Source: a virus. Taken from it: 64,000 bases of DNA. The stretch covers positions 11,537 through 75,536 of the IMG/VR virus record IMGVR_UViG_3300017605_000678; one strand, given 5' to 3'. The translations under genes were made by a program, and so were the position numbers. This document shows positions 20,001 through 36,760 of this stretch, piece by piece (within the stretch, counting starts at the first letter, position 1; every line of letters starts with the position of its first letter). The notes under the pieces were generated by a model. The model was not told the origin of the DNA. It saw only the letters and a program-made list of their open reading frames with translations, and searched no databases.

Positions 20001-20002
20001 AA

Positions 20003-20840: not shown

Positions 20841-20852
20841 TGGGCCAGCCCC

Positions 20853-21407: not shown

Positions 21408-21414
21408 AAATGCC

Positions 21415-21630: not shown

Positions 21631-21731
21631 TTTTTCTTTCGTTCGTGGGGCGCCTTACGGGGGCGGCCCTTTGTCTGAGAAGACCATCGCCTATTTGCGA
21701 CCAGGAGTAAAGAGCTTTTTTGCTCTTTTTT
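21631..21731 (-). promoter_or_regulatory. Repeated early cassette, copy C
   Basis: TTTACT-N17-GATGGT; CCCGTAA hairpin; ACGAACGAAAGAAAAA-ATG. Confidence 0.85.
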
Positions 21732-21963
21732 CAAATTTCTTTCTGGCCGACAAAACAGCCTCTAACCCAGTAGTTTTGAAGCGACCCGGAGGCCTTCCAC
21801 GGCCACCCGGGCGCCATGACTTAAAGCCATTCTTTAGCCTCTTACGCTCCATAAACTTCCCGTGACAACTCAGGCAATGATTCGCCGTGACGCGCGGTTG
21901 TCCGCATTGCGCGCAGAGTCCGTTTTTAACTTTCTTCAACTGCCACCTTCGTTGTCTCGTCAT
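21691..21963 (-). CDS. Basic zinc-finger protein
   Basis: GLCAQCG...CLSC; follows TerL and its 3' end runs into cassette C. Confidence 0.5.
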   Translation of the reverse strand: MTRQRRWQLKKVKNGLCAQCGQPRVTANHCLSCHGKFMERKRLKNGFKSWRPGGRGRPPGRFKTTGLEAVLSARKKFEKRAKKLFTPGRK

Positions 21964-21967
21964 AAGT

Positions 21968-23434: not shown

Positions 23435-23990
23435 AGGATTTTAAAAGCGCCTCTTCGAAGGAATGCACGAGCACGGGCCCGCCCTGGGGACCGCTGATCT
23501 CCGTGCGGACCGGAGTGTCGAGGCCCAGCAGCTCGCAGCGCCGCTTGATACACTGAAGAATAATCTGCAAGTAAATGGCCGCGCCGCCCGTGTCACGGAC
23601 CACCATCGCCCGCTTCAGCTCGGCGGCCGCCGCGCGCTTGGCTTTGCGCGGAAGCGCGCCCGTGCGTTGCTCCGTCGTCGTGCGAACGCGCTCCTTCAGA
23701 AAGGCATCGTGCGCGAGGCGCTCGACGTTATTGATCGCCATGACCTCGCGGGCCCGTTGCGTGACCAAGTGATCCTTCTGCTCCTCCTGCAGCCGGCCGA
23801 TCAACTCCTGGACGTCGAGGTACACTTGCGAGCGTGAGATCGAATAGTCGCGCGTCGCGCTCACTGCCTCGGCGATCTGCTGGAGCGTCTTGCGCTCGCA
23901 GTAGAGGCGCGCGATCAAGGTCAGGTCGACCTCGCGTTGCACGACGTTTCGCTTGTGCGCAAATTTGGACGGACCACCCAGCTTGGCCAT
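23385..23990 (-). CDS. terS: Terminase small subunit
   Basis: HTH, R.ELLGLD.P...EISGPQGGP; directly upstream of TerL. Confidence 0.75.
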   Translation of the reverse strand: MAKLGGPSKFAHKRNVVQREVDLTLIARLYCERKTLQQIAEAVSATRDYSISRSQVYLDVQELIGRLQEEQKDHLVTQRAREVMAINNVERLAHDAFLKERVRTTTEQRTGALPRKAKRAAAAELKRAMVVRDTGGAAIYLQIILQCIKRRCELLGLDTPVRTEISGPQGGPVLVHSFEEALLKSYAPRDDAPAAGAADRN

Positions 23991-23994
23991 AATT

Positions 23995-25326
23995 TCAGGA
24001 TTTGAGTTTAGGTACCAACAGCTCCGGCTCTTGTCCCGTGTGCTCGGCCCAGCGCTCGAGCACGACCGCAACGTAGGCCGGGTCGATCTCGACGCCGTAG
24101 CAGACGCGGTCGAGGTTCTCGCAGGCGATCAGCGTCGAGCCCGAGCCCAGGAATCCGTCGAACACGAGGGCGCCCGGCTTGCTGCTGTGCCGGATCGCGT
24201 GCGCCGGAACTTCGATCGGTTTCTCGGTCGGGTGCTCCGTCTCGCGAGTCTTGGCGATCGTCCAGACGGACAGCGCGTGGCCCTCGTCCGGGAAATTGAA
24301 CGTGTGCTTTCCGCGCGTGGCGTAAGCGATCAACTCCGTGCTCCAGGTCCAATGACGTTTCGTGAGCGAGGGCATCGGCGCCGGCTTGCTGAAGACGCAA
24401 TACGAGAAGTGATCGGACCAAGTGGCCATCCATGCCCAGATCTCGCCGGCCAGATGATGGCTCGTGCAAACGTAGACCGTCACGTCGTCGGCCATTGGCA
24501 GCGCGCGCATGAACTGGCCGGGCTTGAAATCCTTGTCCCACTTGGCCGCCTTCAGGCCGGCCATGGCCGGACTCCAGGCCGCGGCGATCAGTCCGTTTTT
24601 CCCTGCGAGATTGTATGGCGGGTCCGTGAACACGATGTCGGCCTTGTTGCCGCGCATGAACGCGTTCAGCTCCTCGGGCTTGCTGGAATCGCCGCACCAG
24701 ACCCGGTGCTGCTCGAGGGCCCAGACTTGGCCGGGCTTTGTGCGCCACTTCTTTTGCAGAGCCAGCGCCTCGGCCGTGCGCGGCTCCGTCTCTTTCTCGC
24801 AAGTGCGCGCGTCGTGGGCGTCGGCCAGGAGCCGGCGCAGCTCGTCGCCGGAGATCCCCGTGATTGGGTCCATGTCGGCCACTTCGGCGAGCAGCTGGGC
24901 CAGCAGCGCGTCGTCGTCGGCGCCGTTCTGGTAGTTGCCGCTCACGAGGCGCGCCAAGTGGGTCGGCTCGTCATAATTCACCACCACGCAATCGGCCGAA
25001 GAAAAGCCCAGCTCCGCCAGCACTTTTGCGCGTAAATGCCCAGAAACTAGGAGCCCGTTGCGCCGGTTCCACACCAGGGGATCGAAGTAATCGTGCTGGA
25101 GTGAATCTCGCAGGGCGCTCCATTCCGGCGAGCCGGGCTCGGGGTGCTGGCGCGGATTGCGAGGGTGAGGCTTGAGCCGGGCCAGCTCGAGGCGCTCGAT
25201 CGTGAGCGTTGCAGATTTGGATTCCGGCCGCGCGCGCCGGACGCGGCCGGGAGGAGTAGAAGGCCGCGCGGCGGTCCCGTTGGCGGAGCGGCCGGCCGAA
25301 CGGAGCGAGGGTTTCGAGCGAGGCAT
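23995..25326 (-). CDS. ParB-like N-terminal domain fused to DNA methyltransferase
   Basis: PHPRNPR..LVSGHLR; HRVWCGDS, TDPPY, HPTEKP, DGFLGSGSTL. Confidence 0.9.
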   Translation of the reverse strand: MPRSKPSLRSAGRSANGTAARPSTPPGRVRRARPESKSATLTIERLELARLKPHPRNPRQHPEPGSPEWSALRDSLQHDYFDPLVWNRRNGLLVSGHLRAKVLAELGFSSADCVVVNYDEPTHLARLVSGNYQNGADDDALLAQLLAEVADMDPITGISGDELRRLLADAHDARTCEKETEPRTAEALALQKKWRTKPGQVWALEQHRVWCGDSSKPEELNAFMRGNKADIVFTDPPYNLAGKNGLIAAAWSPAMAGLKAAKWDKDFKPGQFMRALPMADDVTVYVCTSHHLAGEIWAWMATWSDHFSYCVFSKPAPMPSLTKRHWTWSTELIAYATRGKHTFNFPDEGHALSVWTIAKTRETEHPTEKPIEVPAHAIRHSSKPGALVFDGFLGSGSTLIACENLDRVCYGVEIDPAYVAVVLERWAEHTGQEPELLVPKLKS

Positions 25327-25431
25327 TGCGCCGCCCGTTGTATCGGGCCAGGGCCAGCCGGTCAAGGTCGCTCGCGCAGGCGCCAGAAACGGCGCACGCC
25401 CCAGGCGTCGCCCTCCGTGTAGCGGAGCCCG

Positions 25432-25683
25432 TCACGGTAAGGGCCCGTCGTCGTCGAAATTATCCTCATCCCTTTCGCAGTCCTCGCAGCCTGGGCATTC
25501 AACTTCTCCGTGATTATGGCAGACGCAAAAGTCGCCACCGCAATAACAGGCAATTGAGCCAAGACCGCCGCACGAGCCGCGAACGGGCTGGAATAATTGG
25601 GCAACTGTGCCACTCGCCCCGCACCAGCATTGCACCACGTCGTTGCAGGGATCCTTCTCTTCGATTTTCTTGTTCTCGCTCAC
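25432..25683 (-). CDS. Cys-rich hypothetical protein
   Basis: CWCG..CGGLG..CYCGGDFCVCHNHGEVECPGCEDC. Confidence 0.55.
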   Translation of the reverse strand: MSENKKIEEKDPCNDVVQCWCGASGTVAQLFQPVRGSCGGLGSIACYCGGDFCVCHNHGEVECPGCEDCERDEDNFDDDGPLP

Positions 25684-26024
25684 TTGAAAGCCTCGGCGCG
25701 CAGCCGCTGGAGCCCGTCGCGCAGCTCCTCGACCCGCTCCGTGATGATTGAGTGCGGACGCTCGACGGCGGAGGCTCGGAATGCTTCCAGCGCGCCCAGC
25801 GCATAGATCAGCACGTCCAGGTCCTCGACGGTGGCCAGGATGGCCACCTTGCTTTTGTCTTCCAGAGAATTGAGCAGCTGCCGTTCAATCACTGGGCGCG
25901 TTGTCTTTTCGATTTTCATAGAGTTTTCGCGTGCCTGATCGCCGAGACCACTTGCTACCTTAGAAAGCCACCAGATCAGGAGTAAAACAAACGCTGCCGG
26001 ATAAAGGAAATCGGCCGCGCTCAT
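25680..26024 (-). CDS. Hypothetical membrane-anchored protein
   Basis: ATGA-coupled start, N-terminal TM. Confidence 0.45.
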   Translation of the reverse strand: MSAADFLYPAAFVLLLIWWLSKVASGLGDQARENSMKIEKTTRPVIERQLLNSLEDKSKVAILATVEDLDVLIYALGALEAFRASAVERPHSIITERVEELRDGLQRLRAEAFK

Positions 26025-26215
26025 GGCGTTAGAGAAGTGAGCAGTCCCGCAAAAGCGACCCACTTCGTGGTTCGTGCACTTCCCTCCCAATAGCTGACCA
26101 GGAGGGCTTTCTTTCTCTCGTTCTTGGCGACGACGAACCAAAGCCGGCCGTCGAACTGGAAAGAGTCGCCGAGTTTGATCTCGTGGAAAGTCGGCAGGCT
26201 GTATTTTTCGCTCAT
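26021..26215 (-). CDS. Hypothetical protein
   Basis: MSEKYSLP, coupled stop/start. Confidence 0.45.
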   Translation of the reverse strand: MSEKYSLPTFHEIKLGDSFQFDGRLWFVVAKNERKKALLVSYWEGSARTTKWVAFAGLLTSLTP

Positions 26216-26219
26216 GGCT

Positions 26220-26441
26220 TCAATTGCCAGGATTTGCCGGCGGAGAGTTTTTGAAATAGTCGATCCGACGCGCGTGCCTCGCCTTGTAAGCCAGGAAAAT
26301 TTCCCGCTGTCCATGCTCGCCTGAGGACCAGCGGCTCCAGCACTCGGCACAAAGCAAAAGACCGTCCTGGCCAGCGCAAGGAACTTTCAAAATGTACGTC
26401 CCAGGGCGGTCCGGATGTTGAAAGCAAAGTTTCGCGCTCAT
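26220..26441 (-). CDS. Hypothetical zinc-binding protein
   Basis: C..HP...LCAEC. Confidence 0.45.
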   Translation of the reverse strand: MSAKLCFQHPDRPGTYILKVPCAGQDGLLLCAECWSRWSSGEHGQREIFLAYKARHARRIDYFKNSPPANPGN

Positions 26442-26956
26442 GGCTTGTGCCTCATTTGCCAGGGCTGAGAGTTTGAGCCGTTCGGATCTGGGCGCCATTC
26501 CCATTTCTCGACGTCGAAGAACCAGCCCGGAGGATACGGTACCTCGTGCGGCGTCCGCAGCTCGCCCGGGTCGCGCCCGAGGACCGTGCCCGCGGGCAAC
26601 GGCGGAATAGGCGGATGTCGCTCGATCGGCAAATCGGGGATCCCATTGTCGAGCGCCTCGATTTTGAACTGGGAATGATTTAAACGATTCGAATACGTGA
26701 CGGAGTTTGAGGAGCGCTCGACCCACACGCCGGGCCCGACCATGACGTGGTCCCCGGGCCGGCAGAGAAATAGCGCGTTGCTCATGCCCACGGCGTCCGA
26801 GGAGTTGACGTGGATCACGCGGAACGGCTCGGTCGACTCCTTGGCAGAATCGACTTGTGAGCGCCAGCCTAGGAACACGCCGGCGCCGAGGCCGAACAGG
26901 ACAAGGCCAAGACCCAGGCAGATCCAGAAAACGTCTTTTGCATGATTGTGGTTCAT
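26438..26956 (-). CDS. Hypothetical membrane protein
   Basis: TM FWICLGLGLVLFGLGAGVFLGW. Confidence 0.5.
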   Translation of the reverse strand: MNHNHAKDVFWICLGLGLVLFGLGAGVFLGWRSQVDSAKESTEPFRVIHVNSSDAVGMSNALFLCRPGDHVMVGPGVWVERSSNSVTYSNRLNHSQFKIEALDNGIPDLPIERHPPIPPLPAGTVLGRDPGELRTPHEVPYPPGWFFDVEKWEWRPDPNGSNSQPWQMRHKP

Positions 26957-27168
26957 TTTGTTTTCCCTTCGTTTCCGCACATCCAGCAGCGTTTTTGCCG
27001 CGGTCGGCCCGCGCTCTGTTTGGCGACCAGCTCGTGGCCGCATTCCAAAAAATAGCGCCTGCTTCCGCCCCAACTCCATGGACCGACCTTTCTGTCGTGA
27101 TCCACTGTCTTGACGATTTTGCGGAGCGGGTGCGGCGTCGGCCGCCAGATAGTTTCTTGGTCAGTCAT
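26953..27168 (-). CDS. Hypothetical zinc-finger protein
   Basis: LECGH...RCWMC. Confidence 0.55.
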   Translation of the reverse strand: MTDQETIWRPTPHPLRKIVKTVDHDRKVGPWSWGGSRRYFLECGHELVAKQSAGRPRQKRCWMCGNEGKTK

Positions 27169-28490
27169 AAAAGGAGGCCGGGCGTCACGGCGCAACGGGC
27201 GCGCGCTTGCTCGGCATAGTCGGGGTTCAACTCCAGGAGGAGCGCAGAGCGGCCCAGCTCGAGCGCTACGGCGCCGGTCGTGCCGCTCCCGGCAAATGGG
27301 TCCAGGACGATCGCCCGGCCCGTGGGCGCCCCGCCGGAGCACTTGCAGGTCGGGCGCCAGCCCACGGTCTTGCGCTCGCGCATGCCGGCCAGGATCCGCG
27401 CCTTCGTCGCGCTGGCATCCTGGGCGCCGGCGGCGCCGAAGTCTTTGGTCGCTTTGCCGGAGTATTCGCCGTTGGCGTCGCCGCCGCACGCGCGCTGGTG
27501 CTCCAGGTCTGGCTTGCCCTTGCGCACGATCCGAACGTACGGCGCCGCGCAGACGGAGCAGCAGCCTCCGGCCGACGTGCCGGCCAGGATGCACGGTTTG
27601 ACCAAGTCCGGCGGGAACGTCGCGAAATGGGCGCCGGGGTAAGCGTAAGTCGTGATCGTCCACACGCTCCGCTTGTTTCGGTCAGGAACAAGATCGATCA
27701 CGGCCGCGCTGAAACTTGAATTCTGTTTTGAGCCGTTGGCGCCGTTATTGGCCGCCGCCTTTGGATTCAAGCCGGCGATCCGCGAGTAAGCCGATTGTTC
27801 CGGAGCATGGTACCCGCGCCCGCGGGCGGCGCGCGCGTGCGAATCCGGGCTGCTAGCCTCTTTAATCGCCTCGCCATCGTAAAAGTAGCGCGCGGACTTC
27901 GTGAGCAGAAACACGTACTCGTGCGCCTTCGTCGGCCGGTCCGTGACACTCTCCGGCATCGGGTTTGGCTTGTGCCAAATGACGTCCGCGCGCAGCACCC
28001 AGCCGGCCGCCTGGAGCGCGAACGCCACGCGCCAAGGAATGCCGATCAAGTTTTTCGTCGCGAGCCGTCCGGCGCCCTTGTGCTGTTCGTCCTGCCGAGG
28101 AGCACGGTCGCGCCGGAACGAAGACCGGTGGCCGACGCGCGGGCCACTGCTGCGCAGCTTGCGAGCGGCGCGCTCCTGGGCGTGCTGGGTGCCGTCGAGC
28201 GCGCTCTTCGTGCCCACACTGCCGCCCCAGCCGCTCGCCGTGTAGCAGTCCCCGAGGTTCAGCCAGAGCGTTCCATCATCCCGGAGCACGCGCGCCACTT
28301 CGTCGAAGATCTCGACCAGCTTTTGCACGTAGGCCTCGACCGTCCGCTCGCGCCCGATCTGCCCTGGATGATTGTAGTCGCGGACCGCCCAGTAGGGTGG
28401 AGAAGTGACCACGCAATGCACGGAGGCCTCGGGCAGCGCGCGCAGCAGGGCCAGGGCGTCGCCCACGCGCAGATCAAGGGTTGGGCTCAT
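27165..28490 (-). CDS. DNA methyltransferase (N4-C/N6-A, beta class)
   Basis: VTSPPYW, WHKPNPMPESV.DR, HFATFP..L, LDPFAGSGTT. Confidence 0.92.
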   Translation of the reverse strand: MSPTLDLRVGDALALLRALPEASVHCVVTSPPYWAVRDYNHPGQIGRERTVEAYVQKLVEIFDEVARVLRDDGTLWLNLGDCYTASGWGGSVGTKSALDGTQHAQERAARKLRSSGPRVGHRSSFRRDRAPRQDEQHKGAGRLATKNLIGIPWRVAFALQAAGWVLRADVIWHKPNPMPESVTDRPTKAHEYVFLLTKSARYFYDGEAIKEASSPDSHARAARGRGYHAPEQSAYSRIAGLNPKAAANNGANGSKQNSSFSAAVIDLVPDRNKRSVWTITTYAYPGAHFATFPPDLVKPCILAGTSAGGCCSVCAAPYVRIVRKGKPDLEHQRACGGDANGEYSGKATKDFGAAGAQDASATKARILAGMRERKTVGWRPTCKCSGGAPTGRAIVLDPFAGSGTTGAVALELGRSALLLELNPDYAEQARARCAVTPGLLL

Positions 28491-28741
28491 TTCGATTTCG
28501 CGATGAACTCGATCCGCGGGAAATAGCTCCCGGAGATCGTGACCGTATTCGTCTTGCAGCTCGTGCAACGGTGGGGATACTGCGCCGGGCTGCTCGTGAG
28601 CACGACGCCGTCGTGCACCATTTCGCCGCCGCACTTCTCGCAGCGCAAGGTCAGGCGCACGGCCTGGACTTCGTTTGTGATGACGGTCTGGCCAGGAGCG
28701 GCCAGAGCGGTAAGAACAAGGATCGGAAGTAATGGTTTCAT
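28487..28741 (-). CDS. Zinc-ribbon protein with signal-like N-terminus
   Basis: MKPLLPILVLTALAA; CEKCGGEM...YPHRCTSC. Confidence 0.55.
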   Translation of the reverse strand: MKPLLPILVLTALAAPGQTVITNEVQAVRLTLRCEKCGGEMVHDGVVLTSSPAQYPHRCTSCKTNTVTISGSYFPRIEFIAKSK

Positions 28742-29685
28742 GTAATTTTCGGAAACTCGCGCACGCGCAGATCGGCCGGCCACTCCAACGGATCTCCGCC
28801 TTTCTTGTCCATCCAGGCGCCGCGCTCGCGCGCGAAATCACTGTGAATTGACTTTCCGTTGTCGTGGCGGTTGCTGCCCAATTGCTTTACGAAAGGAGCG
28901 ACGCCCGCGGCCCGGCACTGGCGTACGCCGTCGCGGATCCACTCGACATTGCACGGGCGCGCCCCTGGGCCACTTTCGCCGCCGAAAATAACCCAATGAA
29001 TGCCCGGCATGCTGCCGAACGAATCGGCTCCGTTGAAAGCAGCAGCCGCAAGATCGATCGGACCCAGCATTGGCTCGACGGAGAGGAACCGCACGCGCGC
29101 CGGGATCCGGACCAGCTCCGGGATCCGCTCGTCCGCATATTTTTGGTTTCCAGCGCTGGCGCCCATCCAGACGTGCGGCGGAGGATTCCCCTCAAGCCAT
29201 TGCGGAACCATGTCTTCGCGGCTGAAGATCTTCGGCACAGCGTCGGCCAGCAGTTTGTACCAACTCTGCGGACGTTTCGAAAGCAAGAGCCAGTCGAGGT
29301 TTCGGGTCTTGTCGATCAGGTTCAGCAAGTCGGCGCGGATGTTCTTGTCGACCTCCTCGTCGAGCCAGTCAGCCATCGAAGCGCAGAAGACACGCGGACG
29401 GTTTGGAAGATTCGAGTGCTCGCAGCTCGGGCAGTCCTCATATAGGCACGGCCCGTGCACTGGACAACGGAAAGGATACCGTGCCGCCGTACGGTTCCAA
29501 TTGATCGGCCCTCGCCAGTTGTCCTCACTCGTCCGCCTCCGCGGCGCGCCCTTGCCCCAGTTGCCGCCGCCGAACCGTTCGTTGAACGTCTCGGCATAGC
29601 AATTAAGGCACTCGGTAGAAACTTTAGTACAACCGATCCAGCCGTTGAACGTGTGATCGGTCCATTCGATGTTGCTGTTTTGCAT
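28738..29685 (-). CDS. DUF5131 (phage Gp37/Gp68) family protein
   Basis: IEWTDHTFN.W.GCTKVS..C.NCYA, RVFC.SM.D, RFLS.EP.LG, WVI.GGESG, F.KQ.G. Confidence 0.9.
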   Translation of the reverse strand: MQNSNIEWTDHTFNGWIGCTKVSTECLNCYAETFNERFGGGNWGKGAPRRRTSEDNWRGPINWNRTAARYPFRCPVHGPCLYEDCPSCEHSNLPNRPRVFCASMADWLDEEVDKNIRADLLNLIDKTRNLDWLLLSKRPQSWYKLLADAVPKIFSREDMVPQWLEGNPPPHVWMGASAGNQKYADERIPELVRIPARVRFLSVEPMLGPIDLAAAAFNGADSFGSMPGIHWVIFGGESGPGARPCNVEWIRDGVRQCRAAGVAPFVKQLGSNRHDNGKSIHSDFARERGAWMDKKGGDPLEWPADLRVREFPKIT

Positions 29686-30111
29686 TTATCCTTTCAGCAC
29701 GTCGATCCCGGCGGCGCGCGCCAGTTCAAGGATGTTCTCCCATGACAAGGTGAACCATTGGCCTGTCTGGCAACTTTGAACTACCGGAGTGCCAATCATC
29801 AGCGTGCTCATCTTGTAACTGAGTTTCCCACGGGTCGCCTCGCCGACGTGGTTCCGCAGAAACAAGGTCCTGGGCTTGTGGATCTCGCCAATTGACTTGG
29901 ACGCGGCCGGACTCGAACCGGCTTTCGGGTCTCCTCGATTCGAAGTCGAGGGCCGCAGACTGGATTCCGTCCCGGGACGTTTACCCAGCGCTGACTGCTT
30001 CCGCGCAGCTGTCGCGCCCTTCAGAGGCGCGGCTGCCCCAGCCTGGGGCGCTTCCTCCGGTCCGTAATTCCGGAGGCGGCCAGAGCAACCGCGAGATTGT
30101 TTGCGTTTCAT
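29686..30111 (-). CDS. Hypothetical protein whose N-terminal half overlaps the tRNA-like element
   Basis: ATGA-coupled; protein-like C-terminus (RTLFLR.HVGEA...WFTLSW..I..LA..AGID). Confidence 0.5.
   Translation of the reverse strand: MKRKQSRGCSGRLRNYGPEEAPQAGAAAPLKGATAARKQSALGKRPGTESSLRPSTSNRGDPKAGSSPAASKSIGEIHKPRTLFLRNHVGEATRGKLSYKMSTLMIGTPVVQSCQTGQWFTLSWENILELARAAGIDVLKG
29898..30019 (-). ncRNA. tRNA-like RNA (Ala-type acceptor, UCG anticodon loop, D-region insertion)
   Basis: Acceptor GGGCGCG/CGCGTCC+A; T-arm GCCGG-TTCGAGT-CCGGC; anticodon arm CTCGA-CTTCGAA-TCGAG. Confidence 0.55.
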
Positions 30112-30572
30112 GGGAGCAGCGCCGCGGGCACGTCGAGGCGAAAGATCCCTTGCAGGCCGCCGGCGAAGATCGGCGCGTCGAACTGCTGCGCCGCCTCCAG
30201 GAGCCAAGCAAAGCGAAGCGCCGAGTAGTCGCCAAGCGATCGCTCTTCGTAGGAAACTCCGCGCTTCAAAGCGTCCTCGGTCGTGCGAAAGCCGGTCAAC
30301 CGGACCGTGCCGATCAGCGCTCCGAACTCCATTGCGTAAGCCTCGACGCGACGGAACGGCTCCAGCTCCATGAGTTTCTTTTGTTCAGGGCGCCAGACTT
30401 TGGCCGCGTGGATCCCGATCGTCTTGCCGATCAATTTCGACGGCGGGCGCCAGTTGCGGGTCTCGATCTTCTTAATCCCCAGGACGACCAGCAACGCCCA
30501 GGGCTGCCAGAGCGTGAGGCAGGGCAGAGCAACGGTCTCGCTCGGCGCAGGAGGCTGAGGCGCGGCGCTCAT
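30108..30572 (-). CDS. ASCH domain protein
   Basis: LTLWQPWA.L...G.K.IETR.W, IHAAK, G.QGIF. Confidence 0.88.
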   Translation of the reverse strand: MSAAPQPPAPSETVALPCLTLWQPWALLVVLGIKKIETRNWRPPSKLIGKTIGIHAAKVWRPEQKKLMELEPFRRVEAYAMEFGALIGTVRLTGFRTTEDALKRGVSYEERSLGDYSALRFAWLLEAAQQFDAPIFAGGLQGIFRLDVPAALLP

Positions 30573-30988
30573 CCGTTCCCCCTCGGGCTCGTCTCATTGT
30601 GCAACGGAAGCACTCCGTGGGAGGCAATTTCCTCGGCCTTGTCCATGGCTTCCCGCTGAAACCAATCGACAAACTCGCCGACCTCGAACTCCAGGCGGTC
30701 GGCCGCGGTCAGCACAGAGAGGCGCCACGGCGCCCCGACCAGCCCGTCCTCGGCATAACGGTCGCGCGCCCGTGAGGCCACGATCCGGCCGTAGTTCTGG
30801 AGCGCCAACACGTCGCCGGCATCCCACTCGCCGCAAGTGATCCGGTTGTAGGCGGTACGGAACGGGTCCTTTTCTTTGGCGTCGCGCAGCTCGGGCGCGA
30901 ATGTCTCCAGCATGTTAAAGGCCTCGCCGAGCCGCTTTTCCCAGCAGGGATCGTCCGCTTCGTGTCTGTAGATCGTTCGTGATGTCAT
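30569..30988 (-). CDS. Hypothetical protein
   Basis: ATGA-coupled ORF. Confidence 0.5.
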   Translation of the reverse strand: MTSRTIYRHEADDPCWEKRLGEAFNMLETFAPELRDAKEKDPFRTAYNRITCGEWDAGDVLALQNYGRIVASRARDRYAEDGLVGAPWRLSVLTAADRLEFEVGEFVDWFQREAMDKAEEIASHGVLPLHNETSPRGNG

Positions 30989-31200
30989 AGGGTTTTCTCC
31001 ACTTTCGGAAACACAAATTTGCCGTTGCTGCAGTCCGTTCCGGTATAGCACAGCCAGCCGGACTCCACAGCCCGGTCCAGGCTCTTCCACGGGCGCAGGC
31101 CGGCCTTGCCCAGGGCGGCCAGGATCTCGCCGCGGCTGAACTCGGTCCGGCCCGTGGCGCGCAGCTTGGCCAGGACGGCATCGATCGCAGGAGTGCTCAC
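30985..31200 (-). CDS. Small winged-helix-like protein
   Basis: FSRGEIL...LDRAVESGWL. Confidence 0.45.
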   Translation of the reverse strand: MSTPAIDAVLAKLRATGRTEFSRGEILAALGKAGLRPWKSLDRAVESGWLCYTGTDCSNGKFVFPKVEKTL

Positions 31201-31421
31201 TCTTGACCTCCTGCTTCCAGATCAGCGCGCGCCGCATTGGCAGAGTACGGCTCATCAAAATACGGACCGTCGTCATGGTAGCTCGCGATCGCGACAAGAG
31301 CGCGGACCAATCGTCGCACTTGCTTTGCTGAATACCGGCCTCCGAACCTCAGCTTGCCGCCGGCGCATGTTCGCACGCTCCTGATCTCGACCGTCTGTTC
31401 TTTCTTAACTTTGGATTTCAT
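31197..31421 (-). CDS. Hypothetical protein
   Basis: ATG preceded by a GC hairpin and ACGAGCGAAC. Confidence 0.5.
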   Translation of the reverse strand: MKSKVKKEQTVEIRSVRTCAGGKLRFGGRYSAKQVRRLVRALVAIASYHDDGPYFDEPYSANAARADLEAGGQE

Positions 31422-31470
31422 GTTCGCTCGTTTGGAGCGGCCCACGAAAGGGCCGCCCCGGTTCAATGAT

Positions 31471-31836
31471 TCAAAACGGGATCCCGTGATCCGGGCCGGA
31501 CAGCTCTGGCGCCGGAGCGAGCACGGGCTGGCTCGGCCAGATTTCGATCCGAACCTCAGGGTCGATTTGTTCCGGCCGCAAAGAGTTGACGGCGGAGCGG
31601 ACGATCTCGGGGCTGGATCCGGAGGAAATAATCCGGAGCCCCTCGCCGAGTAACCCATCAGTGATCGGGCAGTATTCCGGGAACAGCGCGACCGCGACCG
31701 TGTAACCATCCTTCACGAGGGCCATCGCGCGGGCGCGTTGGCTGTTGTCGCGGCGCATGGAGGAAACCGCGTGCGCGCGCTGATAGTCGTTCCGGTACCC
31801 GTCGTCCTCCGCTTCCAGTTCAAATCGTTCGTTCAT
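31471..31836 (-). CDS. Hypothetical early protein
   Basis: A-rich start context after a hairpin. Confidence 0.55.
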   Translation of the reverse strand: MNERFELEAEDDGYRNDYQRAHAVSSMRRDNSQRARAMALVKDGYTVAVALFPEYCPITDGLLGEGLRIISSGSSPEIVRSAVNSLRPEQIDPEVRIEIWPSQPVLAPAPELSGPDHGIPF

Positions 31837-31885
31837 TTGGTTTTTGAAGTTTGGGGCGGCGCAGGCCGCCCCGGTTGTCGTCGAG

Positions 31886-32182
31886 TTACAGTCCCGGGTC
31901 CGCGTCGCTCGTCACGCTGAATCCGTCGAACACGCCGCCGCAGTCGGCCTCGTTGAATGCCACCGGCGCCGGCCGCTGGTCCCAAGTGACCTCCGCGCTC
32001 AGCGGCAGGCCGTCCGCCGACTGCCGGCGGTTGGTGCCCGTGATGTAGGCCCAGCCGGGCGAGGAGTTGATCACGCGGCCGCCGATCTTGGCCACGACAG
32101 CGCGGAGGGTTTCGCCGACCACGGTCAGCTCTTCGCGGAAAAAGCCGGCCGACGCCTGGAAGGTTACGTTGAAGGTTTTCAT
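31886..32182 (-). CDS. Hypothetical early protein
   Basis: First gene after cassette D; ends DCGGVFDGF.V.SDADPGL. Confidence 0.65.
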   Translation of the reverse strand: MKTFNVTFQASAGFFREELTVVGETLRAVVAKIGGRVINSSPGWAYITGTNRRQSADGLPLSAEVTWDQRPAPVAFNEADCGGVFDGFSVTSDADPGL

Positions 32183-32284
32183 TTTCGTTCGTTCGTGGGG
32201 CGCCTTACGGGGGCGGCCCCTCTTTCTGGTTGTGACCATCGTCGATTTCCGCCGCCAAGTAAAGAGTTTTTTTACTCTTTTTTT
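32183..32284 (-). promoter_or_regulatory. Repeated early cassette, copy D
   Basis: TTTACT-N17-GATGGT; CCCGTAA hairpin; ACGAACGAACGAAA-ATG. Confidence 0.85.
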
Positions 32285-32777
32285 AGGCCCCAGAATCTGG
32301 CCGTTTATGGCCGTTTCTGAACTTCAGCAGCCTCTCGGCCGCCATTTTCAAAGGTCCCCCAGACAGCGCCTTGGCCGCGGCCTTCTCCAGCCAGCCCTTG
32401 CGCTTTGGGTCCCGTGCGCCGGCGGCGCGGTCGATCGCCTCGACCCAGCGGATCGCCACGGCCGCCACTTGCAGCAGCTCGGCCCGGCGCTTCTGCGGGT
32501 CTGGCTCCGTGATGGCCTCGAAATGCTCCTCGCTCAAGATCATTGCCCAAGTCTGCTCGCCCGCCTGCATGAGCCGGTTCACTTCGGCCTTTAGTGCGGC
32601 CATCTCCTCGAGCAGGTCCAGGCGCACGCCGTCGGCGTTTTCGTTTCCATGGAGCGAACTCGCGCGAGCAGCCTCCGCCGCCACGTCATGGAACACGCGG
32701 GTCCGAATCGACAGGAAACGGTCCGCGTTCCCGAGCCGGCCAGGACGGCTCCGATCTGGTAGCTCGCCATCGCTCAT
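32283..32777 (-). CDS. MazG-like nucleotide pyrophosphohydrolase
   Basis: TW..IL.EE..EA...R.ELLQVAAVA..W.EAID. Confidence 0.65.
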   Translation of the reverse strand: MSDGELPDRSRPGRLGNADRFLSIRTRVFHDVAAEAARASSLHGNENADGVRLDLLEEMAALKAEVNRLMQAGEQTWAMILSEEHFEAITEPDPQKRRAELLQVAAVAIRWVEAIDRAAGARDPKRKGWLEKAAAKALSGGPLKMAAERLLKFRNGHKRPDSGA

Positions 32778-33913
32778 TTGCTTTTCCATTTGAATCCTTG
32801 CTGGCGCTCGGATCGCTCGCCGTCGAATCCGACCGAATAGCCGAGCCGGCGGTAAAACTCCATCCTGGCCAATGAATGCTTCGTCATAAGCGGGTGCGCC
32901 GTGTCGTGGAAATCGTAGATCAAACCGTGGTTCTTGCCTACGTTTCCGCGCAGCACGCGGCCCGTGCGTTGCTCCGTTTTTGCGCTCGAGCGACCACCGC
33001 ATGCCAGGATCAGCACGTTCGCGTTTGGCAGGTCCAGGCCCTCGTCGGCGAGGCTGGTCGCCACGAGGCACTGTATCGCCCCGGCCCGGAAGCCGTCCAT
33101 TGCCGCGCGGCGCGCCTTGGCTCCCATCTTCGAAAAGCAGACAACGGCGCCCGGGATTCTCTCTCCGAGAAACTGGCCGTGCTCGACCTTATTGACGAGG
33201 ATCAGCACTTGGTCGGTAGCATGCTGTAGCGCCTTCGTGATCACGTAGCCATTGCGGCCGACGTTCTGGACAATGCCGACATCGATACAGACGCGGAACG
33301 CAATTTGCCCCCACAGCTCTTGCTCCGGGATCTGGGAGAAACGGCGCCGCCGGCTCAGCTCACGGTTGATCAACTTGTCCATGCCAGCGGTCAAACTCTG
33401 GTCCGAAGTGGCGATCATGCGCACGAAAGCCGGCACCATCATTTCCTCGACCTCCTCGCGCTCGACCCAGAGCGCCTCACTGAACAGCTCCAGCAGCCGA
33501 GCCAGCTCGTCCTTGTCCTCCGGAGGCGTCGCCGTAAAGCCCCAGCGGGCGCCCTGGGCCGCGGCGATCTGGCCAGCCCAGGAGGGCGCCAGGGCGTGGT
33601 GCGCCTCGTCCACGATCAAGACGTCGGCGGACGTCCAGTCCTGGCAGCCGGCCGCGCAAGCAACCGTGCACTCGGCCTCAACTCCGACGCGCGCGATCGC
33701 TTCGCGCGCTTGCTCGACCTGCTCCTGGGTATTGGCGATCCAGCCCACGCGCACGGCTCGCGCCCGAAAGCGCGCTTCGATCACGCGGCGCAGGGCGGCC
33801 GCGGCAATGATCGTCTTGCCGCTCCCGGCCGGAGAGACCACGAGGCCACGCCGGCGCCCCGCCAGCCATTCCACGGCCTCTTGCTGGTGGGGCTTCAGCT
33901 CGAGAGCATTCAT
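32774..33913 (-). CDS. Superfamily 2 (DEAH) helicase
   Basis: PAGSGKT, IVDEAHH, GFTATP, EGLDLP, QRTGRVLR. Confidence 0.92.
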   Translation of the reverse strand: MNALELKPHQQEAVEWLAGRRRGLVVSPAGSGKTIIAAAALRRVIEARFRARAVRVGWIANTQEQVEQAREAIARVGVEAECTVACAAGCQDWTSADVLIVDEAHHALAPSWAGQIAAAQGARWGFTATPPEDKDELARLLELFSEALWVEREEVEEMMVPAFVRMIATSDQSLTAGMDKLINRELSRRRRFSQIPEQELWGQIAFRVCIDVGIVQNVGRNGYVITKALQHATDQVLILVNKVEHGQFLGERIPGAVVCFSKMGAKARRAAMDGFRAGAIQCLVATSLADEGLDLPNANVLILACGGRSSAKTEQRTGRVLRGNVGKNHGLIYDFHDTAHPLMTKHSLARMEFYRRLGYSVGFDGERSERQQGFKWKSK

Positions 33914-34095
33914 GCTTCGATCAATTTCGTAAGGTCGCGCCATGCGCCGTCGTCCAGGTCCGCGTCGTAATCGACATTCAAAAGCGCATTGCAGTTTGGA
34001 CAGCGGACGTGCTTTGGCGATTGTTCATAGTCGACCGGAACGTCTGATCCGCAGCAGGGACACTCGTGTTCCACGGTGGTAGTTCTGGCGCTCAT
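33910..34095 (-). CDS. Small zinc-ribbon protein
   Basis: CPCCG...CPNC..LL. Confidence 0.55.
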   Translation of the reverse strand: MSARTTTVEHECPCCGSDVPVDYEQSPKHVRCPNCNALLNVDYDADLDDGAWRDLTKLIEA

Positions 34096-34499
34096 CGATA
34101 GCCCTTGCTCTTCATCCAGGCTTGTTTTTGCTGGGCGACATGTCGGCACGTCGCGCGCAAAGTTTCAAGAGAAACGGTGCCGGCCCTGAATCCGTCCAGA
34201 GCGGTGATCATCTGATCGTCCCACTTGCTCAAATAAGCCTTGCCGCGAGCCGCCTTCATTTTCTTTTCGAGCGCTCGCTCGCATTGCACGGCGCAGAAGT
34301 CCCGCGCGAAACTGTTCAGGCATCCCTTCATCATGCCCTTGGTCGTCCCGTCCGACATAAGCGCAGTGAAGACGTAGCGGCCCTCTGCGCCGCAATGCGG
34401 ACAGCGCGCACTCGGCTCCGGATCGCAGGGCCCGAAGTCTTCGCAGCCGAGGACCGCAATTACCGACGGACGCGGGGTTGTGTTCAGCGTGGTCGTCAT
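34092..34499 (-). CDS. Zinc-finger early protein
   Basis: CPHCG..GRYVF...GC, loosely similar to 20853-21407. Confidence 0.55.
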   Translation of the reverse strand: MTTTLNTTPRPSVIAVLGCEDFGPCDPEPSARCPHCGAEGRYVFTALMSDGTTKGMMKGCLNSFARDFCAVQCERALEKKMKAARGKAYLSKWDDQMITALDGFRAGTVSLETLRATCRHVAQQKQAWMKSKGYR

Positions 34500-34512
34500 G
34501 GCGCGCTCTGAG

Positions 34513-34785
34513 TTAGTTATTGTCCCACGCATCCTCACGCGCCAGCACGATCTCGCGCATGACCGCGGCCTCGATCTCCGCCTCGCCCTCGTCGGACTTC
34601 ATCCAGGCCAGCGCGGCCTCTCGGGAGCAGCCCTCGACGGTGCGCAGCTCCGGGTCGATCTCCAGCTCGTCGGCCGTGCCCGGGCTCCAGCGCGTTTGCC
34701 GTTCGCCGGGGAAAAAGCGGACCTCGGTCTCCAGGTCAATGATCACGTCTTCGCCGCCGATCGTGGGTTCCAGTTGGATTTTCAT
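34513..34785 (-). CDS. Acidic hypothetical early protein
   Basis: First gene after cassette E; PGE..T...PG motif. Confidence 0.6.
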   Translation of the reverse strand: MKIQLEPTIGGEDVIIDLETEVRFFPGERQTRWSPGTADELEIDPELRTVEGCSREAALAWMKSDEGEAEIEAAVMREIVLAREDAWDNN

Positions 34786-34885
34786 TTTCGTTCGTTCCGG
34801 GCGCCCTTACGGGGGGCGGCCCTCTTTCTGAGAAGACAATCGGCGATCGGCCTCCGGAAGTAAAGAGCTTTTTTACTCTTTTTTT
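34786..34885 (-). promoter_or_regulatory. Repeated early cassette, copy E
   Basis: TTTACT-N17-GATTGT; CGCCC-CCCGTAA-GGGCG; GAACGAACGAAA-ATG. Confidence 0.85.
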
Positions 34886-35187
34886 GAGGCGGTTTTCCTG
34901 GGCTTTTTGCTGCTTTTTGGCGACCTCAGCGCAACGTCTGCCTCTGGCACTCCGGACATTTTCCGGTAAATCTCCAGGAGCATGAGGCCGACGCCCAGGC
35001 GCGGCTCGGCCCGCTGGCAGTAGTCCGGGAAAAGCCATTGGCGGATGTTCCCAGGGTACTGGCGCCGGCCCGTCATCCTGGACAGTTCCGAGCATACGTA
35101 AGCCATGGATCCGCGGTTGGCCCGCACGTACTCAGCCAGCGGCGCAAGGGCCGCGTCGCTCCGTTCTTGTGTTGGGTCTTTAGTCAT
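34873..35187 (-). CDS. Putative HTH protein
   Basis: V..ELS..TG.....NI.QWL...EP. Confidence 0.5.
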   Translation of the reverse strand: MTKDPTQERSDAALAPLAEYVRANRGSMAYVCSELSRMTGRRQYPGNIRQWLFPDYCQRAEPRLGVGLMLLEIYRKMSGVPEADVALRSPKSSKKPRKTASKKE

Positions 35188-35238
35188 AAATCGTTTGTGG
35201 CGCTCTGGGTCTCGTGGTCCTCTGGCGCTCTATCTTTC

Positions 35239-35454
35239 TCAGCCGACAGCCGGCAGAGGCCACGCTCCAGGCTGCTGGAGAAAGGCCGCGATGTTGTTCT
35301 CTGCCTTGTCGATCGCGCGGACGTATTCGACCCGCGCTTCCGCTCTTGCCCAGGCGTCGCCGCCTCGCTCTTGGTCGAGGAGCGCGACCCTGGCCGTGTT
35401 CTCGGCGATCAGTCGGACATTTTCCGCGATCCCTTTTGCGAACTTTGATTGCAT
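35239..35454 (-). CDS. Hypothetical protein
   Basis: Minus-strand ORF filling the operon. Confidence 0.4.
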   Translation of the reverse strand: MQSKFAKGIAENVRLIAENTARVALLDQERGGDAWARAEARVEYVRAIDKAENNIAAFLQQPGAWPLPAVG

Positions 35455-35463
35455 GTTTTCCTT

Positions 35464-36009
35464 TCATTCCCCCTCAGTCCAGCGGCCCCGCGGATGAGCC
35501 TGGGGCGGAGCGGACGCGTTCGCGTTCAGCGTCCGGTCCTCTGCTCGCATAAACAGCTTCTCCTTCAGAAAAATTGCCTCATATGCGGATCCGACGGTCC
35601 ACGACTTATTGCCAGCCGGGTTCTTGACAGGGATCGAGTAAGAGCCGCTGCTGTTACGTAGAATCGGCCGGCTCCTGTCCAGGAACAGCAGCCCGTCGTC
35701 GCTCGTCCAGGGCTTGCCAGCGCGCGCGCTCCAATCGCTCAGCGCGATCTCGTCGTCCATGTCGTTGGAGTAGTAGCGGTGGCCCTCCTCCTTGATCAGC
35801 TTCCACATCCGAACGGGAAGATCGCCATGCATGCGAGAGGAAGCAACCGACGCCAAGTGATCGTGCGCCTTCTCGATCCACAGCTGCCGATCCCGTTTGA
35901 AACAAGCCAGGATGAATTCCGCGGCGGCCGCCCGGCCGACTTCGGCCGAGCGCTCCGCGTTCGCCTGGGCGCAAATCGTGCGCGCCAGCTCTTCGATTCG
36001 CTCGCTCAC
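35464..36009 (-). CDS. Hypothetical protein
   Basis: GTGA-coupled ORF. Confidence 0.5.
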   Translation of the reverse strand: MSERIEELARTICAQANAERSAEVGRAAAAEFILACFKRDRQLWIEKAHDHLASVASSRMHGDLPVRMWKLIKEEGHRYYSNDMDDEIALSDWSARAGKPWTSDDGLLFLDRSRPILRNSSGSYSIPVKNPAGNKSWTVGSAYEAIFLKEKLFMRAEDRTLNANASAPPQAHPRGRWTEGE

Positions 36010-36257
36010 TTGGCGCCTCCTTCGAAGCGCACACACGGCGCAAAGTGGATCTCGCTCAGGCCCTCCGCGGCAGTCATAGACCCGTCGGAAATAAAGTCGG
36101 AATTGAGATCGGCGGAAACCTCTAGCTCGCTTGCCGCGTCGATCTCAAAATTCTGCTCGCCCTTCAGCTTCTCGCAATCGGCGCAGTCGGCCGCATGCAC
36201 CACAAACTGGCCCTTGCTCTGGTCCCGCAAGTTGGGTCCGAAGATTTTCAGCTTCAT
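36006..36257 (-). CDS. Hypothetical early protein
   Basis: GPNL.DQSKG.F.VHAA.CADC...FAPCV. Confidence 0.6.
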   Translation of the reverse strand: MKLKIFGPNLRDQSKGQFVVHAADCADCEKLKGEQNFEIDAASELEVSADLNSDFISDGSMTAAEGLSEIHFAPCVRFEGGAK

Positions 36258-36661
36258 CGGGCACCTCCGATCCAGCGATCGACGCTCGGCGCGCTCGGCA
36301 GCGCAACGGCCCAGTGAGTCTCGCGCCGGCACTTGCCGTCCACGATCCCGGCCTCGGCGCGCAGCGCGTATTCCAGCTGATCAAGGTCGTTTGAGTTGAA
36401 GTCACGGCACGCGGCGAAAGAGCGGACCAGCTCGCCGGCCTTCATGCCCACGGACATCGTGCCCGAACCGCTCTTGACGTAGAAGCAAACGAAGTCGGCC
36501 CCGTGCACGTCCGTTCCGCGGGCGAAGATCTCGGTCACTTCAGAGAGCCCGAAGCAGCTCGGGACAACGTCGCCGACTTTCAGGTTCGCGACGTCGGAGG
36601 CCTCGGGCAGATACAGCGTGACGCTCTCGTACCGTTTGTTCTGGTAGGTTTTGGTTTTCAC
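36254..36661 (-). CDS. Hypothetical early protein
   Basis: GTG directly after cassette F. Confidence 0.6.
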   Translation of the reverse strand: MKTKTYQNKRYESVTLYLPEASDVANLKVGDVVPSCFGLSEVTEIFARGTDVHGADFVCFYVKSGSGTMSVGMKAGELVRSFAACRDFNSNDLDQLEYALRAEAGIVDGKCRRETHWAVALPSAPSVDRWIGGAR

Positions 36662-36760
36662 TTTCGTTCGTTCCGGGCGCCTTACGGGGGCGGCCCTCTT
36701 TCTGGTGAAGACCATCGGCGATCTGGCGCCGGAAGTAAAGAGTTTTTTTACTCTTTTTTT
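36662..36760 (-). promoter_or_regulatory. Repeated early cassette, copy F
   Basis: TTTACT-N17-GATGGT; CCCGTAA hairpin; GAACGAACGAAA-GTG. Confidence 0.85.

What the first reader, a model, noticed from the sequence alone, without database searches (positions are those of the whole stretch)
29898..30019. 122-nt tRNA-like RNA with Ala identity, Arg(UCG) anticodon loop and a large D-region insertion, nested in a CDS
Seen (minus strand): GGGCGCG pairs with CGCGTCC, giving G1-C72, G2-C71, G3:U70 and discriminator A. There is a perfect T-arm GCCGG-TTCGAGT-CCGGC and a canonical anticodon arm CTCGA-CT[TCG]AA-TCGAG (anticodon 29943-29941). GCTGC can pair with GCGGC as a D-stem enclosing a structured loop of about 48 nt. 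U8 is absent, CCA is not encoded, and the element is read in frame within ORF 29686-30111, right after the ASCH gene. Established: G3:U70 + A73 specify AlaRS charging (also in tmRNA), and UCG reads Arg codons. Inference: a mistranslating or allo-tRNA-like species, a decoy for anticodon nucleases, or an RNase P/Z processing signal. A decayed tRNA is the null explanation.
Basis: partly seen in the sequence, partly recalled or inferred. Interest (0 to 1): 0.72.

Follow-up and report, generated by a model that had tools for sequence, protein, structure and literature searches.

The report
Orphan tRNA-Arg relic inside phage ORF
A stretch that clearly descends from an arginine tRNA gene sits in frame in the floppy front end of a small phage gene, but it fails every tRNA detector, has no relatives anywhere, and is most likely a broken tRNA gene that the neighbouring gene now reads through rather than a new kind of working RNA.

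Summary
The sequence features are real and at the stated coordinates. On the minus strand, 29956-29898 holds a perfect 6-bp anticodon arm (loop CUUCGAA, anticodon UCG), a perfect 5-bp T arm with a consensus loop, a 3' acceptor strand and A73. This 3' half is far beyond chance: it is the only perfect T arm in 151 kb, with an anticodon arm at the right distance.

The 5' half is much weaker. A full 7/7 acceptor partner is expected 0.18 times per 150 nt. The tRNA covariance models prefer another 5' strand, GGACG at 29972, which removes the G3:U70 pair. ARAGORN calls nothing. RF00005 gives 17.3 bits (cut-off 29) and tRNA-Sec gives 23.7 bits (cut-off 47).

The variable region is an unstructured 10-11 nt. 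U8 and A14 are missing. About 36-40 extra nt lie between the D arm and the anticodon arm, possibly a tandem duplication.

The phage is a complete 75.5-kb orphan with no integrase, no other tRNA and no CCA enzyme. No look-alike turned up in viral, genome or metagenome scans, so covariation cannot be tested.

Protein homologs match only residues about 72-137 of the 141-aa ORF. The element therefore lies in a non-conserved, poorly codon-adapted N-terminal tail.

Best reading: a decayed tRNA-Arg(UCG) gene overprinted by an extended ORF. A functional tRNA-like RNA is not excluded.

The parts
29898..29956 (-). Well-supported tRNA-derived 3' half. It comprises a 6-bp anticodon arm (loop CUUCGAA, anticodon UCG at 29943-29941), an unstructured 10-11-nt variable region, a perfect 5-bp T arm with loop UUCGAGU, the 3' acceptor strand CGCGUCC and discriminator A (29898).
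   Evidence: Sequence. Only perfect T arm in 151 kb. RF00005 17.3 bits and RF01852 23.7 bits, the only tRNA-clan hits in the genome. The anticodon-arm 17-mer is shared with real tRNA-Arg(TCG) genes in L033 and L098.
30013..30019 (-). Candidate 5' acceptor strand (a), GGGCGCG. It pairs 7/7 with 29905-29899 and gives G3:U70.
   Evidence: A chance partner is expected 0.18 times per 150 nt. It can also pair with the upstream CGCGCC.
29994..30009 (-). Hairpin 1, GCUGC-GCGGAA-GCAGU. It is D-arm-like, with GG followed by A at the place of G18, G19 and A20.
   Evidence: A D-like hairpin next to a 7/7 partner is expected 0.011 times per 150 nt, by a criterion set after seeing the sequence.
29956..29993 (-). 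Hairpin 2, about 38 nt, the extra segment between the D arm and the anticodon arm. It contains the 10-nt palindrome GUCCCGGGAC. CAGUC direct repeats flank 36 nt, which may mark a diverged tandem duplication.
   Evidence: Fold. Internal similarity of CGGAAGCAGTCAGCG to CGGAATCCAGTCTGCG, shuffle p about 0.08. Deleting core positions 28-63 gives an ARAGORN-callable tRNA-Arg.
29968..29972 (-). Alternative 5' acceptor strand (b), GGACG. The covariance models use it, giving a 75-nt reading with A3-U70, two acceptor mismatches and a stunted D arm.
29686..30111 (-). 141-aa ORF that contains the element in frame. Residues 1-71 are a non-conserved basic tail. Residues about 72-137 are a conserved small phage protein core (IGxIH..FLR..W.TLSW..AGID).
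   Evidence: 232 homologs match only residues about 72-137. Alignment A1. ATGA overlap with the ASCH stop, and no canonical start between 30111 and TTG 29865. The tail has non-coding-like GC3 and codon usage.
30108..30572 (-). Upstream ASCH-domain gene.
   Evidence: PF04266 match just below its cut-off, and phrog_3193 at 2e-24.
28738..29685 (-). Downstream DUF5131 (Gp37/Gp68) gene.
   Evidence: PF07505 at 1e-67.

Best explanation
The element is the relic of a tRNA-Arg(UCG) gene that once lay between the ASCH gene and a small conserved phage gene. It is no longer a working tRNA. It carries about 36-40 extra nt between the D arm and the anticodon arm, possibly from a tandem duplication. Its variable region has swollen to an unstructured 10-11 nt, and it has lost U8 and A14.

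The small gene has no canonical start codon of its own in front of its conserved N-terminal motif. Its codon K72 (AAG, 29898-29896) aligns with the initiator Met of short homologs. The gene is therefore most likely translated from ATG 30111, coupled to the ASCH stop. That reading runs straight through the relic, which now encodes about 40 residues of a basic, disordered N-terminal tail.

Shown: tRNA ancestry of the 3' half, the in-frame position, lack of conservation of the tail, and failure of the tRNA membership tests. Inferred: the order of events, the duplication, the use of ATG 30111, and the loss of RNA function.
For: - tRNA ancestry. It is the only perfect T arm in the genome, with an anticodon arm at the correct distance. 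It gives the only RF00005 and RF01852 hits in the genome. The anticodon arm is identical to that of genuine tRNA-Arg(TCG) genes.
- Not a working tRNA. ARAGORN finds 0 and Rfam gathering finds 0. Scores of 17.3 and 23.7 bits fall below the cut-offs of 29 and 47. The sequence shows A8, no A14, an 11-nt unpaired variable region and a 38-nt insert.
- Duplication hint, shuffle p about 0.08.
- ORF structure. Homologs cover only residues about 72-137, and nobody matches residues 1-70. The conserved SIGEIHKPRT lies upstream of the first alternative canonical start, TTG 29865. The start overlaps the ASCH stop as ATGA. Family members often carry variable basic N-terminal tails.
- The tail is not codon-adapted. 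GC by codon position is .64/.69/.61, against .53/.44/.74 for the core. Its CAI-like index is 0.51, against 0.69 +/- 0.085 for in-frame windows and 0.45 for open out-of-frame windows.
- No support system. There is no CCA-adding enzyme and no other tRNA. CGA makes up only 8% of Arg codons.
- Precedent. A tRNA remnant inside an ORF is described for selC in selB (PMC8124441).
Against: All 18 base pairs of the acceptor (in reading a), the anticodon arm and the T arm are intact, with a single G:U. That is cleaner than expected for a gene old enough to have collected three indels. In isolation the 122 nt fold into a compact five-way junction that keeps all the tRNA helices. No relative with an intact tRNA at this position was found, so the ancestral state is inferred rather than observed. 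Translation from ATG 30111 is unproven: there is no Shine-Dalgarno sequence.
Confidence: 0.5

Rival explanations
1. It is a functional tRNA-shaped RNA module embedded in the polycistronic mRNA. It would fold as a five-way junction and be recognised by RNase P and RNase Z/E as a processing signal, like a plant mitochondrial t-element. Alternatively it would be released as a stable tRNA-like RNA, like phage T4 species 1/2 or T5 RNA2, or serve as a decoy for anticodon nucleases that target tRNA-Arg. Processing would then compete with translation of the 141-aa ORF.
For: The acceptor, anticodon and T helices are intact, and the T and anticodon loops match the consensus. The tRNA-like 3' end (29898) falls exactly where the conserved protein core begins. 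The tail shows no coding adaptation, so something other than coding may be shaping it. Nested tRNAs are proposed to work this way in selB (PMC8124441).
Against: There are no homologs and hence no covariation. The z-score is only -1.8, and the cloverleaf is lost in the 236-nt context fold. The 5' strand is statistically weak and ambiguous. There is no promoter, terminator or CCA enzyme.
Confidence: 0.2
2. Only the 3' half (29956-29898) is tRNA-derived. It would be a tRNA gene fragment picked up by recombination, as at the attachment sites of integrating elements, and the upstream 'acceptor strand' and 'D arm' would be fortuitous GC-rich complements.
For: The tRNA-like block starts at the 5' side of the anticodon stem and runs to the discriminator, which is the typical extent of att-type tRNA fragments (my own knowledge; fragments of this sort are reviewed in PMC9897764). 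A random upstream sequence gives ARAGORN calls as readily as the real one. A 7/7 partner is expected 0.18 times per 150 nt.
Against: There is no tyrosine or serine recombinase in a complete genome with terminal repeats. No genome of 185,579 species holds the T arm plus acceptor 25-mer, or the anticodon arm plus T arm. The 11-nt unpaired variable region is not that of any normal donor tRNA. A D-like hairpin with GGAA adjacent to the 7/7 partner is expected only 0.011 times.
Confidence: 0.15
3. It is a working elongator or mischarging tRNA, charged by AlaRS through G3:U70/A73 or by ArgRS through A20/C35/G36, that reads CGA codons.
For: G3:U70 and A73 are present in reading (a). C35, G36 and a GGAA D-loop fit the known ArgRS determinants (identity rules from my own knowledge and PMC9976931). 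Irregular tRNAs with extra loops and G3:U70 allo-tRNAs do exist (PMC7609411, PMC5389517).
Against: It fails ARAGORN and Rfam. U8 and A14 are missing. The 38-nt extra helix and 11-nt loop sit at the 26/44 hinge. No CCA is encoded and there is no CCA enzyme. CGA is not enriched in the phage. Inserting Ala at Arg codons would damage the phage's own proteins.
Confidence: 0.04
4. It is a chance resemblance in GC-rich DNA.
For: The fold z-scores are modest and the covariance-model scores are sub-threshold.
Against: The joint expectation of a perfect consensus T arm with an anticodon arm at the right distance is about 1e-4 for this genome (plus a composition estimate). It is also the only tRNA-model hit in 75.5 kb.
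Confidence: 0.02

Closest known systems
tRNA-Sec gene (selC), and its remnant, nested inside the selB ORF of Alphaproteobacteria (Mukai 2021, PMC8124441)
   Same: A tRNA-derived sequence is read in frame as part of a non-conserved terminal extension of a protein ORF, with the start and stop of neighbouring ORFs overlapping. A 'remnant' version is also described.
   Different: That case has a complete, canonical tRNA, conserved across many genomes, in a C-terminal extension. Here a non-canonical, orphan, Arg-type sequence lies in an N-terminal extension of a phage gene.
tRNA gene fragments and pseudogenes in prokaryotic and phage genomes (van der Gulik et al. 2023, PMC9897764)
   Same: A partial or non-canonical tRNA sequence with an intact 3' portion that detectors score low.
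   Different: Those fragments are tied to integrated elements or CRISPR activity. No integrase and no donor tRNA were found here.
Phage tRNA-like stable RNAs (T4 species 1 and 2; T5 RNA2). Cited from my own knowledge and an earlier scan note, not tested here.
   Same: An RNA of tRNA shape with an extra domain, encoded by a virulent phage, of unknown function.
   Different: Those are conserved and known to be expressed and processed, and they lie in tRNA clusters rather than inside a CDS.
Allo-tRNAs and other irregular tRNAs (Mukai 2017, PMC5389517; Krahn 2020, PMC7609411)
   Same: An unusual cloverleaf. Some carry G3:U70 with unrelated anticodons, and some have an extra loop.
   Different: Allo-tRNAs have an 8/4 or 9/3 acceptor/T branch and a long paired variable arm. 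This element is 7/5 with an unpaired variable region, and its extra helix is at position 26.
tmRNA tRNA-like domain and TLD-only mini-tmRNAs of phages
   Same: G3:U70, A73 and a consensus T arm, in reading (a).
   Different: tmRNA has no anticodon arm, whereas this element has a complete Arg-type one. The ARAGORN tmRNA search was negative.

Membership tests
Canonical tRNA (Rfam RF00005 / ARAGORN) | Score at or above the family threshold, or a detector call | tested here: not met
   RF00005 gives 17.3 bits against a cut-off of 29. ARAGORN finds 0 genes. Rfam at gathering thresholds finds 0.
Canonical tRNA (Rfam RF00005 / ARAGORN) | T arm with G53-C61 and a UUCRANY loop; 7-nt anticodon loop with U33 and a purine at 37 | tested here: met
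   GCCGG-UUCGAGU-CCGGC and CUUCGAA.
Canonical tRNA (Rfam RF00005 / ARAGORN) | U8, A14 and a normal D arm one nucleotide from the anticodon stem | tested here: not met
   A at position 8, C at position 14, and about 38-40 extra nt between the D-like hairpin and the anticodon stem.
Canonical tRNA (Rfam RF00005 / ARAGORN) | Variable region of 4-5 nt, or a paired long arm | tested here: not met
   10-11 nt without a stem.
Canonical tRNA (Rfam RF00005 / ARAGORN) | 7-bp acceptor stem | tested here: inconclusive
   7/7 with the distal strand at 30019, which has a chance expectation of 0.18. 5/7 with the strand at 29972 that Infernal prefers.
Alanine identity (AlaRS substrate) | G3:U70 wobble pair in the acceptor stem | tested here: inconclusive
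   Present only in reading (a). Reading (b) gives A3-U70. Charging cannot be tested with these tools.
tRNA-Sec (RF01852) | Family score, 8/5 branch, UCA anticodon and a long variable arm | tested here: not met
   23.7 bits against a cut-off of 47. The anticodon is UCG, the branch is 7/5 and there is no variable arm.
Allo-tRNA | 8/4 or 9/3 acceptor/T branch and a long variable arm | tested here: not met
   7/5 branch and an unpaired 11-nt variable region (definition from PMC5389517).
tmRNA / TLD-only mini-tmRNA | tRNA-like domain without an anticodon arm; detector call | tested here: not met
   A complete anticodon arm is present. ARAGORN finds no tmRNA and there is no Rfam tmRNA hit.
att-type tRNA 3' fragment of an integrating element | Integrase in the element and identity to a host tRNA 3' end | tested here: not met
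   No PF00589 or PF00239 match in the complete genome. There are 0 exact matches in 185,579 species genomes.
Nested tRNA gene inside an ORF (selC-in-selB type) | tRNA sequence in frame within a terminal, non-conserved extension of a real ORF | tested here: met
   The stretch is in frame with no stop. Homologs cover only residues 72-137. The start overlaps the ASCH stop as ATGA. Translation of the tail itself has not been shown.
Nested tRNA gene inside an ORF (selC-in-selB type) | The nested tRNA is complete, canonical and conserved among relatives | tested here: not met
   It fails the detectors. None of 232 family members matches the tail. None of the members with long N-terminal tails that were checked carries a T-arm-coded peptide there.
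RNase P/Z processing signal (t-element-like) | Cleavage at the 5' and 3' borders of the tRNA-like fold | not testable with these tools
   No sequencing run was listed, so read laying could not be used.

The most novel reading that the evidence does not exclude
The 122 nt are a living, dual-use element. The same DNA would encode the disordered tail of a phage protein and also a processed five-way-junction tRNA-like RNA. That RNA would have an Arg anticodon arm, a possible Ala-type acceptor and an extra helix at the 26/44 hinge. It would act as an mRNA processing switch or as a decoy for tRNA-Arg-targeting defence nucleases.
Probability: 0.12. Interest if true: 0.75.

Novelty: new member of a known kind. 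Interest (0 to 1): 0.3.

Why it matters
If it is a relic, it is a tidy example of a phage gene extending its reading frame over a dead tRNA gene. It also warns annotators that tRNA-shaped motifs with a freely chosen distal 5' strand easily look complete.

If instead the RNA is made and processed, it would be a phage case of a tRNA-like module nested in a coding sequence. So far that situation is predicted only for selC in selB. It would give a handle on how phages couple mRNA processing, or anti-defence decoys, to protein coding.

Tried and rejected
- Integration-site reading. No integrase was found, and no matching tRNA 3' end in the genome collection.
- Exact-pattern scans for look-alikes. 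Viral contigs gave 0 three times. The metagenome scan for anticodon arm plus T arm gave 0. Nearly all are unrelated coding or repeat DNA, and two are ordinary tRNA-Arg(TCG) genes. These scans can find only near-identical copies.
- Related phages found through neighbouring proteins. ASCH relatives are at 31-34% identity and DUF5131 relatives at 38-52% (57% at best in the 5.8-billion-protein set). Relatives of the small protein are at 41-61%. None has a tRNA, a T-loop motif or an Rfam hit, and none shares the gene order.
- TerL has no relative in IMG/VR and is below 33% identical to any deposited phage.
- A 38-nt match to a Burkholderia gladioli plasmid (E = 7e-4) lies inside an unrelated CDS and lacks the T loop. 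I rejected it as chance.
- There are no repeats of the element elsewhere in the phage.
- No promoter-like or terminator-like site is near the element.
- The look-up of sequencing runs listed no run, so read laying was not used and expression is untested.
- The deletion-scan 'rescue' by ARAGORN was rejected as evidence for the 5' half after the random-upstream control.

Full report
**What is there.**
On the minus strand the stretch 30019-29898 reads, in order:
- GGGCGCG, then ACA;
- hairpin 1, GCUGC-GCGGAA-GCAGU;
- hairpin 2, about 38 nt, containing the palindrome GUCCCGGGAC;
- a 6-bp anticodon arm, CCUCGA-CUUCGAA-UCGAGG (anticodon UCG at 29943-29941);
- AGACCCGAAA;
- the T arm, GCCGG-UUCGAGU-CCGGC;
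- CGCGUCC and a discriminator A.

Folded alone, the 122 nt give a five-way junction that keeps the acceptor, anticodon and T helices (-56.1 kcal/mol). The z-score is only -1.8. In a 236-nt mRNA context the minimum-free-energy fold pairs the 5' strand with an upstream CGCGCC and dissolves the T arm (z = -2.3).

**Is it more than chance?**
The 3' half is.
- It is the only perfect 5-bp T arm with a TTCRANY loop on either strand of the 75.5-kb genome.
- Anticodon-arm-like hairpins occur at 6.6e-5 per nt. With my composition estimate of about 0.1 chance T arms per genome, the joint expectation of both at the right spacing is about 1e-4.
- It is the only place in the genome where the tRNA covariance model rings (17.3 bits). 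The tRNA-Sec model gives 23.7 bits. Both are below their cut-offs of 29 and 47.
- The 17-nt anticodon arm is identical to that of two ordinary tRNA-Arg(TCG) genes found in metagenomes. The ancestry is therefore an arginine tRNA.

The 5' half is weak.
- A 7/7 partner for CGCGUCC (G:U allowed) is expected 0.18 times in 150 nt. Requiring an adjacent D-like hairpin with GG lowers this to 0.011, but I set that criterion after seeing the sequence.
- Both covariance models choose a different 5' strand, GGACG at 29972-29968. That gives a 75-nt reading with A3-U70, two acceptor mismatches and a stunted D arm. The 'alanine identity' therefore depends on which 5' strand is chosen.
- ARAGORN calls nothing in the native sequence. 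It calls tRNA-Arg(tcg) after about 36-48 nt are deleted.
- The control was sobering. The true 3' half joined to random 150-nt pieces of the same genome, scanned the same way but with a 6/7 acceptor partner allowed, gave calls in 103 of 120 cases. The rescue therefore says nothing about the 5' half.

**Departures from a working tRNA.**
- Position 8 is A and position 14 is C.
- Three nucleotides instead of two separate the acceptor from the D stem.
- About 38-40 extra nt lie between the D arm and the anticodon stem.
- The variable region is 10-11 nt without pairing.
- No CCA is encoded.
- The extra segment is flanked by CAGUC direct repeats 36 nt apart. It shows a weak internal similarity (13 of 15 positions, shuffle p about 0.08), consistent with a diverged tandem duplication inside the D region.

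**Genomic setting.**
- The window belongs to a complete 75,536-bp virus record with direct terminal repeats and 63% G+C.
- It has no tyrosine or serine recombinase, no CCA-adding enzyme and no other tRNA.
- CGA is 8% of Arg codons, so there is no obvious demand for this anticodon.
- The element sits in a tightly packed minus-strand operon. In order: the ASCH gene (30572-30108), the 141-aa ORF (30111-29686, start overlapping the ASCH stop as ATGA), DUF5131 (29685-28738) and an N6/N4 methylase.

**Coding or not?**
A full phmmer search of 1.84 billion representatives found 232 relatives of the 141-aa ORF. All match residues about 72-137 only, and none matches residues 1-70. The conserved core begins with IGxIH. 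In the window, SIGEIHKPRT starts two codons after the tRNA-like 3' end.

There is no ATG, GTG or TTG in frame between ATG 30111 and TTG 29865, and that TTG lies inside the conserved motif. Codon K72 (AAG, 29898-29896) aligns with the initiator Met of short homologs such as P0153 (MSIGKIH). Many family members carry variable, basic N-terminal tails of 20-110 residues. The annotated 141-aa ORF, with the element in frame, is therefore the most economical gene model.

The tail is nevertheless not shaped like coding sequence.
- GC by codon position is .64/.69/.61, against .53/.44/.74 for the core.
- Its codon-adaptation index is 0.51. That is lower than 97% of in-frame windows of this phage and typical of open out-of-frame windows.
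- An open 71-codon frame occurs in 37% of random draws from this genome, so openness itself carries no weight.

**Conservation.**
None could be found.
- Exact-pattern scans found nothing in 2.9 million viral contigs, in genomes of 185,579 species or, for the anticodon arm plus T arm, in JGI metagenomes. These scans detect only near-identical copies.
- Related loci reached through ASCH, DUF5131 and the small protein (31-61% identity) hold no tRNA, no T-loop motif and no Rfam hit, and they do not share the gene order.
- The closest DUF5131 homolog among 5.8 billion proteins is 57% identical. TerL is below 33% identical to any deposited phage and has no relative in IMG/VR.
No sequencing run was listed, so expression is untested.

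**Interpretation.**
Most likely (about 0.5) this is a decayed tRNA-Arg(UCG) gene that lay between ASCH and the small gene, over which the small gene's reading frame now extends from ATG 30111. This matches the 'tRNA remnant inside an ORF' described for selC in selB (PMC8124441) and the general class of tRNA gene fragments (PMC9897764).

The main argument against simple decay is that all helices of the anticodon and T arms, and of the acceptor in reading (a), are still perfect. That keeps open a functional tRNA-shaped RNA, such as a processing signal, a stable tRNA-like RNA or a decoy (about 0.2). A captured 3' fragment with a fortuitous 5' complement is also possible (about 0.15). A translating or mischarging tRNA is unlikely (about 0.04). 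Pure chance is effectively excluded.

Earlier notes of this scan describe tRNAs nested in frame in other phage genes. I used them only as a lead to the selB paper. None concerns related DNA.

**Verdict.**
The 3' half is real and tRNA-derived. The 122-nt boundaries and the G3:U70 pair are not established. Interest is modest (0.3). It would rise sharply if a processed RNA or conserved relatives were found.

Noticed in passing
window 29686-29898 (-): The conserved core of the 141-aa ORF belongs to a widespread family of small phage proteins, about 65-90 aa long (consensus IGxIHPxxSMFLR...GK.KYEM...P.V.S.QTGKWFTLSW.DIL.LA..AGID). It has 232 relatives but no Pfam or PHROG family. Members carry very variable basic N-terminal tails.
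   Followed up: partly
window 29896-29898 (-): Codon K72 (AAG) aligns with the initiator Met of short homologs (for example P0153, MSIGKIH). It is one base away from ATG, and its first base is the tRNA-like discriminator A. This suggests a lost start codon that abutted the former tRNA gene.
   Followed up: partly
window 29969-29978 (-): A perfect 10-nt palindrome, GTCCCGGGAC (which contains CCCGGG), forms the tip of the extra hairpin.
   Followed up: no
window 18917-36689 (mostly - strand): The motif CCCCGTAAGG, the loop of the 'leader hairpin' cassettes noted by first readers, occurs 7 times with up to 1 mismatch, against 2.9 expected. The copy at 32203-32212 (-) lies about 2.1 kb upstream of the element on the same strand and may mark the start of its transcription unit.
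   Followed up: partly
window 30020-30107 (-): The first 90 nt of the ORF tail also hold GC-rich hairpins: CUCCGG...CCGGAG, CCCCAG-GC-UGGGG, and CGCGCC-UCUGAAG-GGCGCG. The last of these competes with the proposed acceptor stem.
   Followed up: partly
window 23995-25365 (-) and 27165-28481 (-): Two separate N6/N4 DNA methylase genes lie within about 5 kb, one directly downstream of DUF5131 (Gp37/Gp68).
   Followed up: no
L098:3075-14202: A metagenome contig that happens to share the anticodon-arm 17-mer carries five tRNA genes (Pro, Ser, Arg-TCG, Leu, Leu) within 11 kb. It is unrelated to the window.
   Followed up: no
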